In this document: in pieces, positions 36,801 through 57,612 of the stretch
How positions within the stretch are numbered: the first letter of the stretch is position 1
How the letters are laid out: the number at the start of each line of letters is the position of its first letter
IMG/VR virus record: IMGVR_UViG_3300025141_000018
Length of the DNA: 64,000 nt
Direction: 5' to 3' (one strand)
Origin: a virus
Lineage: Duplodnaviria; Caudoviricetes
The notes under the pieces: model-generated
Database searches by the model: none
The model's input: the letters and a program-made list of their open reading frames with translations, nothing else
Told to the model about the DNA's origin: nothing
Program-made: the position numbers and the translations under genes

Positions 36801-36829
36801 ATTATAACAAAAATATAGTAATTAGTCAA
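36801..36829 (-). promoter_or_regulatory. sigma70-like promoter for the GT operon
   Basis: TTGACT-N17-TATAAT. Confidence 0.55.
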
Positions 36830-39800
36830 CTTCTTTGTTAGGCGGTATGTACCAGGTTAATTCGTCAATTTTTGCTTTTAACTCTTGTATTTTACTAGTT
36901 TGAGCATTAATAGCATTGACCAACAACGGAATTACTTTTTCATATTTAATTGTTAAGTAATCTTCACCTGATTTTGAACTACCATCTTCAGCAATATCAA
37001 ACGGTGCTGGTACTACTACTTCTGGTAATATTTTTTGTACTTCTTGTGCTATTAAACCAACTTGTCGTTTATCAGAATCATATCCAAATAACTTTGCTTC
37101 GTCGTTATTTTTATAATATACGCCTGATATTTCCTTTAATACATCGGCGGCATCTTTACCTTCAACATCTTGTCCCGGACCATCAGGTTCAATTTCTTTT
37201 AATCGTCTATCAGAATAGTATGCTGTAATTTCGCTTGTTGCACGAACTTCTCCGTTTACTGTCAACACTCCACTTGCAAGTGCCATCAAATCAGTATCAG
37301 AAGTATGTCCAATATTAGTACTGTCAATTTTAACATTATCTACCGTTAATGCAGTCAATGTTCCTACTGATGTAATCTGGGTCTGTGCCGCATTTACACT
37401 TAAAGTATTCGTTGATAATGTTAAGCCTGTCCCTGCACTAAGAGCAGTCTTAGACATCGCTAATCCAGATATAGTAGTAGCATTTCCAGAGGAAGTTACA
37501 TCACCGGTTAGGTTTGCATTCGTTACAACAGTTGCCGCATTGCCTACACTTGTTACCCCACCTGTTAGATTTGCGTTTGTTACAACAGTTGCCGCATTAC
37601 CTACACTTGTTACCCCACCTGTTAGATTTGCGTTTGTTACAACAGTTGCCGCATTGCCTACACTTGTTACCCCACCTGTTAAGTTAGCATTAGTTGTGAC
37701 TGTATCTGCATTTCCAGTTAAATCTCCTGTTACATTTCCTTCAAGATGTGCAACGATTGTTCCTTTTACTCCAGAGGCAACCTCTGAGGTTAATGTTGCA
37801 TCTGGTATGAAAATAAGTTTACTAGTAGAATCATCATATCCAAGAAATGCAGTTTTTGCGGCTGATCCATTGTGATACTGCATTGCAAGACCAACATCTT
37901 TATTTGTATCAGCGGCTAACGCACCTCCACCGGAAGCAGTTTGGAGATGAATAATTGGATCGACCACTGTCATTGTTGTACTATCTATTGTGTAATTTGT
38001 TCCTGATACTGTAAAATCGCCAGTTACTGTTAAATCTTGAGATACAGAAACATTTCCGGTTGCATCGATTGCAATAGCATCAGTATCAGAAGCGGAACCT
38101 ATGGTTCCAGCATCCTTTATTACAATATTTCCGCCAAAATATCCATCACATGCTACACTAAGTCCGCCATCTGATTGTAACGCACCATTAGTTGTAGATG
38201 TTGCATTTGTAGTATCATCTGTAAGTATTCTTCCTGTTGCGGTAATAGTTGTTCCACTGAATATTGCTTTAGCGGAACTTATACCACCATCAGTTTGTAT
38301 TGAACCATCTGTACCACTTGTTGCATCTGTTGTGTCATCACTAAGTATTCTGCCAGTTGCAGTAATGGTTGTTCCACCGAATATTGCTTTAGCAGAACTT
38401 ATTCCGCCATCTGTTTGCAATGCACCATCTGTTCCACTTGTTGCATCTGTTGTGCTATCGCTAATTATCCGACCAGTTGCAGTTATTTTACCTGCGGCAA
38501 ATACATCACATGCGGCACTTATACCACCATCTGTTTGCAATGCACCATCAGTTCCGGTTGTTGCATTTGTTGTGCTATCGCTAATTATCCGACCAGTTGC
38601 AGTTATTTTACCTGCGGCAAATACATCACATGCGGCACTTAATCCGCCATCTGTTTGCAATGCACCATCAGTTCCGGTTGTTGCATTTGTTGTATCATTT
38701 GTAAGTATTCGACCAGTTGCAGTTATTTTACCTGCGGCAAATACATCACATGCGGCACTTATACCACCATCAGTTTGTATTGATCCATCTGTTCCAGTTG
38801 TTGCATTTGTTGTGCTATCGCTAATTATTTTGCCAGTGACTGTTACTTGTCCGCCAATATATCCATCACATACTACACTAAGTCCACCGTCAGTTTGTAT
38901 TGATCCATCTGTTGTGTCTGTTGCGTTTGTTGTGCTATCACTAAGTAATCTGCCAGTTGCGGTTATCTTACCTGCGGCAAATACATCACATACTACACTA
39001 AGTCCACCGTCAGTTTGTATTGATCCATCTGTTCCAGTTGTTGCATTTGTTGTGCTATCACTAATTATTCGACTACCACCTACAATACAAGAAGTTGCAG
39101 TAATAAGTCCGGTTTGATCAATACATAATTGCTTAGTACCAGCAGTATAAAATTCTAAATCATCGGAATCTGATGATACCTCAGCACAAATATATGTGTC
39201 CTGATCAATATCAATTAATCCACCGAGGGAGCCCCAAGCAGATCCACTATAACCTTCAAATGAGCTTGTTGTAGTATTGTATCTTACTCCGCCTTGTGTC
39301 GGTGATGCATCTCGTTCAACAGTTGTACCAACCGGTAATACCAATGAATTAGTACCTTCAACAACTACGTTTCCAGTACCGTTTGGATCAAGATTTATAT
39401 TACCATCTGTATCTGTACTTTGTATATCGTTTAAATTAGTAGGATCAAATTGTACATTCGTAGCGGTATCGCCAGCACCTGATTCTGGAACTCCTGTGTT
39501 ACCAGTATAACGTGATCCTTTAACATATATCTTTTTACCACTTAATGCACCCGGTATACTTGTACCAATAAAGTTTAAAACACCTGCATCATAATCAAAA
39601 AACCATTCGTAGCCTGATTCACCACCAAGTAATTGTGTACCGCCTGTTTCTGGATCTGTTTGTCCAGCATCGTCGGCGTATACTTTTACTAAGTAAGTGG
39701 ATCCATACGAAGTATCAATCCAATCTGTTAAACCTGTTTTCCATGATCTTTGTGATGTTGCAGTTGCATCTTCTGTACATTCAACAGTTGCACTTGAACT

Positions 39801-40019
39801 TCCACCATCTGAATATACAGTAACAACACCGGCAGTAGCACTTGGTTGAACACCAGGAATGTCTCCAGATTGTGCCCATATTACTGAGCTATTAATTCTT
39901 GATACGGCAGGAATGGCCTCGTTAGGTCCACCTTTAACAGAAGATATATCTGTTTTCGCGGCTTTAAATCCGAGCTTCTTCCATAAAAAGTCTATCTTTT
40001 GATCACTTGTAATTGCCAT
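36822..40019 (-). CDS. repeat-rich tail fibre with a C-terminal peptidase S74 intramolecular chaperone
   Basis: YSDRRLKEIE...GLIAQEV...YEKVIPLLVNAI; Mtd-N-like LPVGTTVER..GGVRYN; 40-aa and 19-aa repeats. Confidence 0.85.
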   Translation of the reverse strand: MAITSDQKIDFLWKKLGFKAAKTDISSVKGGPNEAIPAVSRINSSVIWAQSGDIPGVQPSATAGVVTVYSDGGSSSATVECTEDATATSQRSWKTGLTDWIDTSYGSTYLVKVYADDAGQTDPETGGTQLLGGESGYEWFFDYDAGVLNFIGTSIPGALSGKKIYVKGSRYTGNTGVPESGAGDTATNVQFDPTNLNDIQSTDTDGNINLDPNGTGNVVVEGTNSLVLPVGTTVERDASPTQGGVRYNTTTSSFEGYSGSAWGSLGGLIDIDQDTYICAEVSSDSDDLEFYTAGTKQLCIDQTGLITATSCIVGGSRIISDSTTNATTGTDGSIQTDGGLSVVCDVFAAGKITATGRLLSDSTTNATDTTDGSIQTDGGLSVVCDGYIGGQVTVTGKIISDSTTNATTGTDGSIQTDGGISAACDVFAAGKITATGRILTNDTTNATTGTDGALQTDGGLSAACDVFAAGKITATGRIISDSTTNATTGTDGALQTDGGISAACDVFAAGKITATGRIISDSTTDATSGTDGALQTDGGISSAKAIFGGTTITATGRILSDDTTDATSGTDGSIQTDGGISSAKAIFSGTTITATGRILTDDTTNATSTTNGALQSDGGLSVACDGYFGGNIVIKDAGTIGSASDTDAIAIDATGNVSVSQDLTVTGDFTVSGTNYTIDSTTMTVVDPIIHLQTASGGGALAADTNKDVGLAMQYHNGSAAKTAFLGYDDSTSKLIFIPDATLTSEVASGVKGTIVAHLEGNVTGDLTGNADTVTTNANLTGGVTSVGNAATVVTNANLTGGVTSVGNAATVVTNANLTGGVTSVGNAATVVTNANLTGDVTSSGNATTISGLAMSKTALSAGTGLTLSTNTLSVNAAQTQITSVGTLTALTVDNVKIDSTNIGHTSDTDLMALASGVLTVNGEVRATSEITAYYSDRRLKEIEPDGPGQDVEGKDAADVLKEISGVYYKNNDEAKLFGYDSDKRQVGLIAQEVQKILPEVVVPAPFDIAEDGSSKSGEDYLTIKYEKVIPLLVNAINAQTSKIQELKAKIDELTWYIPPNKEVD
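37504..37731. repeat. 57-bp coding tandem repeat (VVTNANLTGGVTSVGNAAT)
   Basis: Units start at 37504, 37561, 37618 and 37675. Confidence 0.9.
38112..39071. repeat. 120-bp coding tandem repeat, 8 copies
   Basis: Consensus RIISDSTTNATTGTDGSIQTDGG.S..CD.FAAGKITATG. Confidence 0.9.
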
Positions 40020-56665: not shown

Positions 56666-56673
56666 TTATATCT

Positions 56674-57612
56674 CTAATGTAAATCTGTCCATGCTCCATT
56701 AGCGTATCCTCTGAACTTGCAAGTATCTGTTTTATAATACATCATTCCTTCAGTTCCTGCAGGATCGCTAGTTGCACCATGTAATTTAATTGTTCCGCCC
56801 ATTGTTAAACTTGTTAATGTACCAACACTTGTAATACCTGCTTGTGCGGCATCTACACTTAAAGAATGGGCAACATTTTCTCCGGTAGTTGCTCCTGAAG
56901 ATGTTAGTCCGGTTCCAGCAGTTAATGTTCCAACATAGTTACCGGAAGTATCAGTACCAAGTGTAACCGAATTTGCTTGAATTGTTGCTGTTCCTGTTAC
57001 ATTTCCTGATCCATCAAACCCACTTGAAGTCCATACAACATCTCCTGTCATACCAATAGTTCTAGCCGTTGTAAGTTTATCAGCAGTTCCTGATGAACCA
57101 CCAGTTGAGCCAGCAGTTGTAGCACAACAAACTGAAAAATCACATGCTAATACTTTTTTAAATGCATTATCAGTTGCATCAACAACTACTAGATAATCAG
57201 TGTTACTGTCAATTGGATTATACATTTGATCGCATATAACACCTGTGCTAACAGTCATACAACCACTAGAAGCAAGAGTTATATCTCCTGAAACTGCTTT
57301 TGCGGTATAGCAACTTCCTTGCCCTACTAATACATTTCCTGCAGATGCAGTTGCAGTAACAACATCTGTTAAACAATTAAGGGCTAAACCAGTTGTGTGT
57401 GCTACTGATTTCCAAGTACATGAAGATGGATCAGAATCAAAATATTCTACTGCATATGTTTCATTATTATATCTTAACGAACCACCTTTTAGTGTACTAC
57501 CTGAAGCACAACGAGAAGCAGTATTACCAGCAGGCAACACCATATTACTACATGTGCCTACTTCTAAATTGCTCGGTGCTGAGCTCGGATATGGTACTAT
57601 TACTGAAGTCAT
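56674..57612 (-). CDS. short fibre/decoration protein with an Mtd-N-like domain
   Basis: Likely start MTSVIVPY at 57612 (the longer ORF call overlaps gp23); late box at 57639-57645. Confidence 0.75.
   Translation of the reverse strand: MTSVIVPYPSSAPSNLEVGTCSNMVLPAGNTASRCASGSTLKGGSLRYNNETYAVEYFDSDPSSCTWKSVAHTTGLALNCLTDVVTATASAGNVLVGQGSCYTAKAVSGDITLASSGCMTVSTGVICDQMYNPIDSNTDYLVVVDATDNAFKKVLACDFSVCCATTAGSTGGSSGTADKLTTARTIGMTGDVVWTSSGFDGSGNVTGTATIQANSVTLGTDTSGNYVGTLTAGTGLTSSGATTGENVAHSLSVDAAQAGITSVGTLTSLTMGGTIKLHGATSDPAGTEGMMYYKTDTCKFRGYANGAWTDLH

What the first reader, a model, noticed from the sequence alone, without database searches (positions are those of the whole stretch)
36822..57612. 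Cysteine takeover of the fibre/appendage proteins
Hand counts of Cys from the translations: 20/324 aa (54918-55892), 7/141 (44645-45070), about 46/1341, 11/313, 15/454, 8/253 and about 44/1525 (43 of them in the first ~1140 aa). The core virion proteins have 2/389 (gp23), 4/907 (sheath) and 0/453 (gp15). The Cys residues are scattered single substitutions, not CxxC clusters. The repeats show the swap directly. One column of the 8-copy 40-aa repeat is C in six copies and K in two (SAACDVF vs SSAKAIF). The TxD(I/L)xE units of the 1341-aa fibre have C in seven copies and T or D in others. PKD-like strands read YSVCLRM and RDVCLQAY where Thr is usual, and even the S74 chaperone reads SDRKIKCDIE. 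T->C and K->C need multiple base changes, which points to selection across many genes rather than mutation bias. TGT still encodes the catalytic Cys of the radical-SAM genes, so this is not recoding. Phage structural proteins fold in a reducing cytoplasm and are usually Cys-poor. Inferred options: disulfide-stitched appendages, a thiol-dense metal-binding or redox coat, or acceptor sites for enzymatic modification. This is the best candidate here for an undescribed system.
Basis: partly seen in the sequence, partly recalled or inferred. Interest (0 to 1): 0.82.

Follow-up and report, generated by a model that had tools for sequence, protein, structure and literature searches.

The report
Cysteine-rich fibres of marine jumbo phage
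A widespread clade of uncultured marine giant phages has put about twenty times more cysteine into its outer fibre proteins than its relatives, probably to lock them together with sulfur bridges once the virus is in seawater. Enzymatic modification of these cysteines is not excluded.

Summary
Eight fibre or appendage proteins (36822-57612, minus strand) hold 161 Cys in 5,415 aa (3.0%; single proteins 0.9-6.2%). The other ORFs of the window hold 0.9%, the capsid protein 0.5% and the sheath 0.4%.

It is not a family trait. Twenty direct fibre homologues in related jumbo phages hold 31 Cys in 20,542 aa (0.15%). In total, 115 of 118 database homologues of the 324-aa protein are Cys-poor. The syntenic sister contig has 0-2 Cys per fibre.

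The trait defines a clade of marine phages. f1525 orthologues at 78-94% identity hold 40-45 Cys each, and the window's DNA occurs in 17 metagenome studies. Cys sit where relatives have polar residues, above all Thr. They are kept more often than average (84% against 70% invariant). They are scattered, with no CxxC, CxC or CxxxC excess. Between subclades they move locally, in a 7-for-7 exchange.

It is not recoding and not a CXXX-repeat radical SAM system.

My best reading (about 0.45) is disulfide cross-linking after lysis, as solved for phages Milano, Pam3 and crAss001, here confined to the fibres. The main rival (about 0.25) is enzymatic S-modification. An earlier follow-up in this scan described Cys-packed tail proteins in a crass-like phage.

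The parts
36822..40019 (-). 1065-aa fibre with eight 40-aa repeats and a C-terminal Peptidase_S74 chaperone. It has 10 Cys, eight of them at residues 278-624. The repeat column is Cys in six copies and Lys in two.
40030..44607 (-). 1525-aa fibre with 44 Cys (2.9%), 43 of them in the first 1139 aa. The middle part is predicted as tandem Ig-like beta-sandwiches, and the C-terminal 385 aa hold one Cys.
44645..45070 (-). 141-aa small appendage protein with a fibre-type N-terminal motif and 7 Cys (5.0%). The Cys are almost fully kept in 11 protein clusters of 77-99% identity.
45737..49762 (-). 1341-aa fibre with TxD(I/L)xE...NLYYT repeats and an S74 chaperone; 46 Cys (3.4%). It is absent from the close relative G001.
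49755..51119 (-). 454-aa appendage protein with 15 Cys (3.3%).
54918..55892 (-). 324-aa protein with Chlorovirus-glycoprotein-repeat-like motifs (TNxTSxxTG...GGxGVxCD); 20 Cys (6.2%). The AlphaFold model is confident but has no secondary structure, i.e. an extended chain that probably folds only as an oligomer.
55904..56665 (-). 253-aa protein of the same motif family with 8 Cys (3.2%). It matches PHROG families annotated 'structural protein' and 'head decoration protein'.
56674..57612 (-). 312/313-aa fibre-like protein with 11 Cys (3.5%). The longer 377-aa ORF that overlaps the capsid gene is probably not the true start.
51484..54918 (-). Two subtilase (Peptidase_S8) genes inside the appendage block, with 1.3-1.5% Cys. 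An S8 gene sits next to proteins of the 324-aa type in distant contigs too.
33420..36797 (-). Operon directly after the fibres: a coiled-coil protein, a weakly GT9-like 302-aa protein, a 154-aa protein, an Anp1/GT-A-like 204-aa glycosyltransferase and a 367-aa protein. These are candidate modifiers, not shown to act on the fibres.
28123..29945 (-). Radical SAM/SPASM enzyme (334 aa, 11 Cys) overlapping a 275-aa protein whose nearest atlas clusters include DUF6071/GDSL-like families. Found only in the Cys-rich clade among the records searched.
22304..23317 (-). Second radical SAM gene (337 aa), 90% identical in G001.
57707..58876 (-). Major capsid protein, the Cys-poor internal control (2/389). 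It is 98% identical in G001 and 73% identical to Sinorhizobium phage Phosso.

Best explanation
The window belongs to an uncultured marine jumbo myophage of the Rak2/GAP32-like group. In one clade of these phages, the exposed shafts and Ig-like decoration domains of at least eight fibre or appendage proteins have acquired and kept many cysteines. The sites are mostly polar and inferred to be surface-facing. The capsid, sheath and fibre tips stayed Cys-poor. None of the eight proteins starts with an export signal, so they are made and assembled in the reducing cytoplasm with free thiols (read by eye; the rest of this step is inferred). After lysis, in oxygenated seawater, neighbouring thiols oxidise to disulfides. 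These would form within domains (cross-strand staples on the beta-sandwiches), between chains of a trimer, and between different appendage proteins. An example of the last kind is the ring of three equivalent Cys at each 40-aa repeat of the 1065-aa fibre bonding to small Cys-rich proteins such as the 141-, 253- and 324-aa products. The result would be a covalently stitched, mechanically and proteolytically tougher fibre apparatus. The bonds could be opened again by reduction at the host. Shown here: the enrichment, its restriction to one lineage, its retention, and the kind of sites used. Inferred: that the Cys end up as disulfides.
For: Enrichment: 161/5415 against 135/14801. Relatives are Cys-poor: 532 ORFs in 80 related contigs average 0.30%, with the 99th percentile at 2.2%. 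Direct homologues hold 31 Cys in 20,542 aa. Fibres of the cultured Vibrio phage 2.275.O hold 0.3-1.5%. Retention: 40/40 aligned Cys of the 1525-aa fibre persist at 83% identity in G001, and 7/7 in the 141-aa protein. Across six full-length orthologues 84% of Cys are invariant, against 70% of all residues and 68% of the residue types they replaced (p = 0.03). Population variants in four other runs include 22 amino-acid changes, none at a Cys, and two synonymous TGC-to-TGT changes. Signs of coupled change: columns 154 and 169 occur together in five sequences and are absent together in four. Subclades A and B exchange 7 Cys for 7, including 292<->294 and 748+750<->731+746 within one domain. Cys number per 100 aa is almost constant. 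Cys lie in or at predicted beta-strands, flanked by hydrophobic residues at +/-1 (52% against about 35% for other residues). In the Cys-poor homologue these columns are polar in 25 of 35 cases. Precedent: in every Cys-rich virion solved so far the Cys form disulfide networks. These are Milano (2.4% Cys in structural proteins, DTT-sensitive robustness, PMC10491603), Pam3 (fibre Cys28 x3 bonded to the wedge, PMC9942802) and crAss001 (fibre docking hubs, PMC10172136).
Against: No coordinates were available, so no S-S distance was measured. Cys totals per chain are odd in four of six full-length orthologues (45, 43, 45, 41) and in the 141-, 454- and 312-aa proteins. Single Cys come and go (columns 452, 984, 1070; C76 to Asp in the 141-aa family). 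The 312-aa family keeps its Cys density but not its positions. That is looser than classical structural disulfides. One Cys per 40-aa repeat in a threefold fibre cannot pair within its own ring. No thiol oxidase, DsbA or Erv homologue was seen in the window or mentioned in the notes on this genome. The phage has a very large set of tailoring enzymes according to unchecked notes.
Confidence: 0.45

Rival explanations
1. The Cys are programmed acceptor sites for enzymatic S-linked modification. One form would be S-glycosylation by the glycosyltransferases encoded next to the fibres or in the large tailoring cluster. Another would be radical SAM thioether staples. In proteins that are 24% Ser+Thr, Cys would give the enzymes unique addressable sites, and S-linkages would resist hydrolases in seawater.
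For: Site behaviour resembles viral glycan-shield sequons. There are many scattered surface sites, they are moderately conserved, they slide locally by 2-10 residues, their number varies between strains and their density is kept constant. Thr is the residue most often replaced. A glycosyltransferase operon follows the last fibre gene directly and is conserved in the clade. A radical SAM/SPASM enzyme plus an SGNH-like partner, and the GT9-like gene, were found only in Cys-rich records. The fibre motif resembles the Chlorovirus glycoprotein repeat. Unchecked notes report 13 more radical SAM genes, GTs and sulfotransferases about 40 kb beyond the window's end.
Against: S-glycosylation is known only from a few bacteriocins, and no paper on it in virions was found. 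The Cys-poor sister contig G002 has the same layout of fibres followed by a GT operon (Anp1-like 34%, 367-aa protein 45% identical). Cys-poor G004 has eight radical SAM matches and three copies of the 367-aa family. These enzyme families therefore do not track the Cys. Both radical SAM proteins score far below every curated peptide-maturase model, and the SPASM enzyme has no N-terminal recognition domain. There is no sequence motif around the Cys beyond Cys-Asp.
Confidence: 0.25
2. The thiols stay reduced or reversibly bonded and act chemically at infection. They could serve as a redox-triggered latch, or attach to host envelope proteins by thiol-disulfide exchange.
For: In Pam3, reduction releases the fibres and triggers contraction. 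The Cys lie on shafts and decoration domains rather than in cores. Odd Cys numbers leave unpaired thiols.
Against: Free thiols are unlikely to survive long in oxic seawater (established chemistry, not tested here). The putative receptor-binding C-terminal parts are the Cys-poor parts. About 160 sites is far more than a latch needs.
Confidence: 0.1
3. The fibres form a thiol-dense coat that binds metal ions (Fe, Zn, Cu, Cd).
For: Three symmetry-related Cys per repeat could form a trigonal site if they lie near the fibre axis. T4-type fibres bind metal ions on the axis (established knowledge). An unchecked note reads a cupredoxin-like ligand set in the 1341-aa fibre.
Against: There is no excess of CxC, CxxC or CC. 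His makes up only 1.1% of the fibres. The same columns are Lys, Glu, Gly, Thr or Asn in relatives, so they are unlikely to be axial ligand positions. Pfam finds no metal-binding domain.
Confidence: 0.08
4. The enrichment has no function of its own. It would be drift or hitch-hiking in fast-evolving fibre genes of one lineage.
For: Fibre genes evolve fast. Cys conservation is only moderately above average (p = 0.07 against all residues). Positions turn over.
Against: A roughly 20-fold excess arose in parallel in at least eight genes but in no core gene. It persists down to 35-42% identity in the 324-aa family. Local density is held constant by compensating swaps. Thr, Asn and Lys to Cys each need two or three base changes.
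Confidence: 0.07

Closest known systems
Disulfide-networked virion of Agrobacterium phage Milano (PMC10491603)
   Same: Structural proteins are Cys-enriched relative to other phages. The Cys are conserved in close relatives. The enrichment serves covalent stabilisation of a particle assembled in the cytoplasm.
   Different: Milano has 2.4% Cys spread over capsid, neck, collar and sheath, and its disulfides are seen in maps. Here capsid and sheath hold 0.4-0.5% and only the fibres are enriched (3-6%). No structure exists, and the positions are more fluid.
Cyanophage Pam3 fibre-to-wedge disulfides (PMC9942802)
   Same: In an aquatic myophage, one outward-facing Cys per chain of a trimeric fibre bonds to Cys of another protein. 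This is a model for the single Cys per repeat in the 1065-aa fibre.
   Different: Pam3 uses one Cys per fibre chain plus two Cys-rich loops. Here there are about 160 Cys over 5.4 kaa in eight proteins.
[quoted passage not shown]
   Same: Disulfides join fibre-docking proteins. The scan's earlier case has 5-7% conserved Cys in tail and fibre proteins of an aquatic phage.
   Different: That is an unrelated phage order with a podovirus-like tail. There the Cys concentrate in hub, collar and ring proteins, not along long fibre shafts.
CXXX-repeat radical SAM maturation cassettes in phage tail-fibre modules (TIGR04114/TIGR04115; scan notes e1-301815 and others)
   Same: A jumbo phage with Cys-rich fibre-associated proteins and radical SAM/SPASM genes in the same genome.
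   Different: There is no Cys-every-fourth-residue repeat (CxxxC 5 observed, 5.2 expected). The radical SAM proteins do not match TIGR04115, and they lie 8-14 kb from the fibres.
S-glycosylated bacteriocins (sublancin/SunS, glycocin F/GccA; from my own knowledge)
   Same: Cys act as glycan acceptors for GT-A type transferases.
   Different: Those are small secreted peptides with one or two sites. Nothing here shows that the phage transferases act on Cys or on the fibres.

Membership tests
Disulfide-cross-linked phage virion parts (Milano / Pam3 / crAss001 type) | Cys content of the structural parts concerned is clearly above that of related phages | tested here: met
   3.0% against 0.15% in 20 direct homologues and 0.30% in 532 ORFs of related contigs
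Disulfide-cross-linked phage virion parts (Milano / Pam3 / crAss001 type) | The Cys are conserved among close relatives | tested here: met
   40/40 and 7/7 in G001. 32 of 57 Cys columns are invariant in nine orthologues, and the rest mostly show compensated swaps.
Disulfide-cross-linked phage virion parts (Milano / Pam3 / crAss001 type) | Cys pairs lie within bonding distance in the assembled structure | not testable with these tools
   The structure tools return no coordinates. The models are monomers with mean pLDDT 58-67.
Disulfide-cross-linked phage virion parts (Milano / Pam3 / crAss001 type) | Particle or fibre integrity is lost on reduction | not testable with these tools
   Needs virions or recombinant fibres; no isolate exists.
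CXXX-repeat radical SAM target/maturase system (TIGR04114/TIGR04115) | The target carries Cys at every fourth residue in tandem | tested here: not met
   CxxxC 5 against 5.2 expected; Cys gaps are indistinguishable from shuffled sequences
CXXX-repeat radical SAM target/maturase system (TIGR04114/TIGR04115) | The maturase matches the curated model | tested here: not met
   TIGR04115 is absent from the NCBIfam hits of both radical SAM proteins. The best hits score 54 bits against cut-offs of 170-380.
Sactipeptide/ranthipeptide-type radical SAM/SPASM maturation | Radical SAM core plus SPASM auxiliary-cluster domain | tested here: met
   PF04055 at 44.7 bits and PF13186 at 21.6 bits (cut-off 21.5) in 28123-29127; 11 Cys; CNAQCPFC at residue 11
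Sactipeptide/ranthipeptide-type radical SAM/SPASM maturation | N-terminal peptide-recognition domain, and the substrate gene next to the enzyme | tested here: not met
   The radical SAM domain starts at residue 5, leaving no room for a recognition domain. The neighbours are an SGNH-like protein and tRNAs, and the nearest Cys-rich fibre is about 8 kb away.
S-glycosyltransferase systems (SunS/GccA type, GT2) | A GT2-family transferase related to known S-glycosyltransferases | tested here: inconclusive
   The 204-aa protein matches Anp1 (40.1 bits, above the cut-off) but GT2 only at 16.7 bits (cut-off 23.3). A 34%-identical copy exists in the Cys-poor G002.
Metallothionein-like or Cys-cluster metal sites | Clustered CxC / CxxC / CC motifs | tested here: not met
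   All three are at or below the shuffle expectation.
Fibres with a Peptidase_S74 intramolecular chaperone | C-terminal PF13884 domain | tested here: met
   The 1065-aa fibre (42.4 bits) and the 1341-aa fibre (38.7 bits) match it. The PDB match is to the long tail fibre distal subunit 6f45.
Codon reassignment of TGT/TGC | Cys codons at positions where Cys cannot be meant, or non-Cys codons at essential Cys | tested here: not met
   The CxxxCxxC motifs of both radical SAM genes are encoded by TGT. Other window proteins have ordinary Cys levels.

The most novel reading that the evidence does not exclude
The cysteines are a genetically encoded address system. Phage enzymes (the fibre-adjacent glycosyltransferases, the radical SAM/SPASM-SGNH pair, or the large tailoring cluster elsewhere in the genome) would attach S-linked glycans or thioether staples at these sites. 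This would give a marine virus a chemically hardened, hydrolase-resistant coat on its fibres, a kind of virion modification not described for any phage.
Probability: 0.2. Interest if true: 0.9.

Novelty: new variant of a known kind. Interest (0 to 1): 0.6.

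Why it matters
Little is known about how giant marine phages keep long, elaborate fibre systems intact for days in seawater full of proteases, glycosidases, light and shear. This is an abundant clade: near-identical DNA occurs in 17 metagenome studies. It has rebuilt the surface chemistry of its whole appendage set around sulfur while leaving head and tail untouched. If the Cys form disulfides, the Milano/Pam3 principle extends to fibres. It would also predict redox-sensitive infectivity and decay rates in oxic against low-oxygen water. If the Cys are modified, it would be the first S-linked modification of a virion. It would also point to a possible substrate for the many radical SAM and glycan enzymes reported for this genome. 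Either way the proteins are small enough (141, 253 and 324 aa) to test without culturing the phage.

Tried and rejected
- GenBank phages hold no homologue of the 324-aa protein or of the radical SAM/SPASM enzyme.
- IMG/VR holds only one close relative of the 1525-aa fibre and none of the 1341-aa fibre.
- No whole genome is held for the window. Gene gain on the branch where the Cys arose could therefore be tested only on five fragmentary or distant records. That gave a weak result: the GT9-like gene, the 275-aa gene and the SPASM enzyme are clade-specific there, but the wider GT and radical SAM families are not.
- PDB sequence searches with the 253-aa protein, the 1065-aa fibre and a 39-sequence profile found only the S74 chaperone and nothing for the Cys-bearing repeat.
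- Foldseek with the 324-aa model found nothing.
- Structure tools give no coordinates, so Cys-Cys distances and exposure could not be measured. A proxy based on beta-strand faces gave only a modest signal.
- Following the radical SAM/SPASM family to 51%-identical homologues led to an unrelated gene context without fibres.
- Host inference from the AapJ-like gene gave only a probably mis-binned contig and 37%-identical Pseudomonas genes.
- The 'moraphage' paper (PMC12619734) concerns a different lineage.
- Other 'Cys-rich' ORFs near the capsid gene of relatives turned out to be enzymes, not fibres.
- Recoding, CXXX-repeat systems, metallothionein-like clusters and N-x-C sequons (5 against 10.6 expected) were considered and rejected.
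- I did not run complex prediction, because its scores would not locate the Cys.

Full report
**What the window is.** The capsid protein (57707-58876) is 73% identical to that of Sinorhizobium phage Phosso. It is 65-69% identical to those of Vibrio phage 2.275.O, GAP32, CBB and other Rak2/GAP32-like jumbo myophages. No whole genome is held. Near-identical DNA of 54918-57800 occurs in contigs of 20 marine or seawater runs from 17 studies. The sequence is therefore a real and widespread uncultured marine phage. G+C is 33-40% throughout.

**The observation.** I translated all plausible ORFs and counted Cys.
- 324-aa protein: 20 Cys
- 141-aa protein: 7
- 1341-aa fibre: 46
- 454-aa protein: 15
- 253-aa protein: 8
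- 1525-aa fibre: 44, of which 43 lie at or before residue 1139
- 312/313-aa protein: 11, using the start at 57612 that its orthologue supports
- controls: capsid 2/389, sheath 4/907, gp15-like protein 0/453

The eight appendage proteins together hold 161 Cys in 5,415 aa (2.97%). All other ORFs hold 135 in 14,801 (0.91%; Fisher p = 7e-24), and that second set includes the Fe-S and zinc-finger enzymes. The 1065-aa fibre is only mildly enriched overall (0.94%), but its Cys lie in the repeat part.

The repeat details also hold. The 40-aa repeat has Cys in six copies and Lys in two. The TxD(I/L)xE...NLYYT units of the 1341-aa fibre carry Cys. Its S74 domain reads SDRKIKCDIE.

Shuffling each protein shows no excess of CC, CxC, CxxC, CxxxC or N-x-C, and Cys spacing looks like random scatter. 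Only Cys-Asp is enriched (38 against 12.3 +/- 3.4). Part of that comes from the repeated motif GG-x-G/S-V-x-C-D. Both radical SAM genes encode their CxxxCxxC with TGT, so there is no recoding.

**Not a family trait.**
- In 80 IMG/VR contigs with capsid proteins 72-77% identical, 532 ORFs of at least 200 aa on the capsid strand average 0.30% Cys, with the 99th percentile at 2.2%. The few Cys-rich ones are enzymes, not fibres.
- Direct homologues of the window's fibres in L054/G002, L015, L017, L001, L005, L008 and L091 hold 31 Cys in 20,542 aa.
- The best comparison is G002. Its fibre is 45% identical to the 1525-aa protein and has 2 Cys in 1,391 aa. The same contig continues with fibres of 1,457 (open-ended in L054), 963, 243, 1,732, 252 and 1,711 aa holding 0-2 Cys each. 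They are followed by a glycosyltransferase operon as in the window.
- Of 118 database homologues of the 324-aa protein other than the two nearest, 115 are Cys-poor (median 0.2%).
- The cultured marine relative Vibrio phage 2.275.O has 0.3-1.5% Cys in its fibre and tail proteins.

**A clade trait.**
- Contig G001 (IMG/VR, 66.9 kb, capsid 98% identical, fully syntenic) has a 1,424-aa fibre with 45 Cys and proteins of 142, 264 and 312 aa with 7, 11 and 12 Cys. Its core proteins are again Cys-poor.
- Seven further loci carry orthologues of the 1525-aa fibre at 78-94% identity. The full-length ones have 40-45 Cys.
- The 141-aa protein has 11 clusters of 77-99% identity with the same seven Cys. One sublineage has Asp at one of them and two have an eighth Cys.
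- Proteins of the 324/253-aa type at only 35-42% identity (P0013-15, L110, L120) still have 3.5-5.5% Cys, including the Cys in the repeat motif. Cys-poor homologues have Lys, Gly, Glu, Ser or Gln at that motif position.

**What kind of sites.**
- Against the Cys-poor homologue, 25 of 35 alignable Cys columns are polar (background 53%) and 5 are hydrophobic (background 25%). Thr is the commonest residue there (11 against 5.6 expected, p = 0.017).
- The residues at +/-1 of Cys are hydrophobic more often (52%) than around any other residue type (29-42%). This fits outward-facing positions in beta-strands.
- An AlphaFold model of residues 520-960 of the 1525-aa fibre (mean pLDDT 58) is all-beta. 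About 19 of its 22 Cys lie in or at strands, and it matches tandem Ig-like/FN3-like adhesin and mastigoneme domains.
- The model of the 324-aa protein has pLDDT 80-89 over the repeat parts but no secondary structure. This suggests an extended chain that folds only in an oligomer.
- The likely receptor-binding ends are Cys-poor: the last 385 aa of the 1525-aa fibre hold one Cys, and the last 440 aa of the 1065-aa fibre hold none.
- None of the proteins starts with an export signal (read by eye).

**Selection.**
- Across six full-length orthologues, 84% of Cys are invariant. The figure is 70% for all residues (p = 0.07) and 68% for the residue types Cys replaced (p = 0.03). Cys ranks with Gly, Tyr and Trp.
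- Of 57 Cys columns in nine sequences, 32 are invariant.
- The two subclades differ by seven Cys lost and seven gained. These include local swaps (292<->294, 357<->349, 695<->685) and a two-for-two swap within one domain (748+750<->731+746).
- Columns 154 and 169 appear and disappear together.
- Cys number per 100 aligned residues is nearly constant.
- Variants in four other runs comprise 16 synonymous and 22 amino-acid changes. None removes or creates a Cys, and two are TGC-to-TGT.
- The 312-aa family keeps density more than position.
- Totals per chain are often odd.

**Modification enzymes.** Directly after the fibres lies an operon with an Anp1/GT-A-like transferase, a weakly GT9-like protein and unknowns. 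Eight kilobases further lies a radical SAM/SPASM enzyme that overlaps a protein of a viral family related to DUF6071/GDSL. A second radical SAM gene follows.

Both radical SAM proteins score far below all curated maturase models and are not CXXX-repeat maturases. The SPASM enzyme has no room for an N-terminal recognition domain.

Among five Cys-poor relatives, one of them a complete 543-kb genome, the GT9-like gene, the 275-aa gene and close homologues of the SPASM enzyme are missing. However, the Anp1-like and 367-aa genes occur in G002, and G004 has eight radical SAM matches. The link between these enzymes and the Cys is therefore suggestive at best. Unchecked notes from this scan report a roughly 60-kb tailoring cluster with 13 radical SAM genes, and a SUF operon, elsewhere in the genome. 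I could not verify them.

**Comparison with what is known.** Three solved virions use disulfides.
- Milano: 2.4% Cys in structural proteins, most of them bonded, and a robustness that DTT abolishes.
- Pam3: three Cys28 of each trimeric fibre are bonded to Cys-rich loops of the wedge, and reduction releases the fibres.
- crAss001: the fibre docking hubs are joined by disulfides.

An earlier follow-up in this scan described a crass-like aquatic phage with 5-7% Cys in tail and fibre proteins. Several others described CXXX-repeat radical SAM cassettes next to tail fibres. The present case fails the defining features of the latter.

**Verdict.** It is a derived, maintained feature of one marine jumbo-phage clade, limited to exposed appendages. 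Given the base rate (every Cys-rich virion examined so far uses disulfides), the hints of coupled Cys changes and the constant local density, I put disulfide stitching after lysis first, at about 0.45. This includes bonds between different appendage proteins. The looseness of positions, the odd counts, the one-Cys-per-repeat geometry and the enzyme-rich genome keep enzymatic S-modification alive at about 0.25. A redox latch, a metal coat and drift share the rest. The pattern is a new variant of a known kind. It would become categorically new only if the Cys prove to be modified.

Noticed in passing
window 45081-55892 compared with G001 (IMGVR_UViG_3300030116_007542): G001 is syntenic with the window but lacks the 1341-aa fibre, the 454-aa protein, both subtilases and the 324-aa protein. 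This appendage block is therefore a strain-level accessory cassette.
   Followed up: partly
window 51484-54918; L001-L006, L091, L110, L120: One or two Peptidase_S8 subtilase genes sit inside the fibre block. An S8 gene lies directly next to a protein of the 324-aa type in distant viral contigs as well, so this is a conserved pairing of unknown role.
   Followed up: partly
window 28123-29945; L012, L013, L014: A radical SAM/SPASM enzyme overlaps a 275-aa protein whose nearest atlas clusters carry DUF6071/GDSL-like families. The pair is conserved at 68-95% identity in three viral contigs. G001 and L012 have an extra 408/409-aa protein with 10 Cys nearby that the window lacks.
   Followed up: partly
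window 24146-26219: An AapJ-type amino-acid-binding protein is encoded next to a small protein with a weak SoxA/TsdA-type cytochrome c match (23.6 bits, below the cut-off). The closest cellular-labelled homologue of the binding protein (53%) is on a 15-kb contig of a Flavobacteriaceae MAG that may be mis-binned phage DNA.
   Followed up: partly
window 10589-11035: A TnsA-like endonuclease domain protein (76 bits) lies among the tail genes; it is possibly a homing or mobile endonuclease.
   Followed up: no
   Followed up: no
window 56674-57807: The longest ORF (377 aa) overlaps the end of the capsid gene by 100 bases. The orthologues start at the position equivalent to 57612, which gives a 312-aa product.
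   Followed up: yes
window 54918-55892 (model mea7b2b9b4208): The AlphaFold monomer has pLDDT 80-89 over about 170 residues without any helix or strand. The repeat matches no solved structure by sequence or by Foldseek, so this very common phage and chlorovirus fibre motif may have an unsolved fold.
   Followed up: partly
Pfam finds no cupredoxin domain in this protein at E <= 0.01, and I did not examine it further.
   Followed up: no
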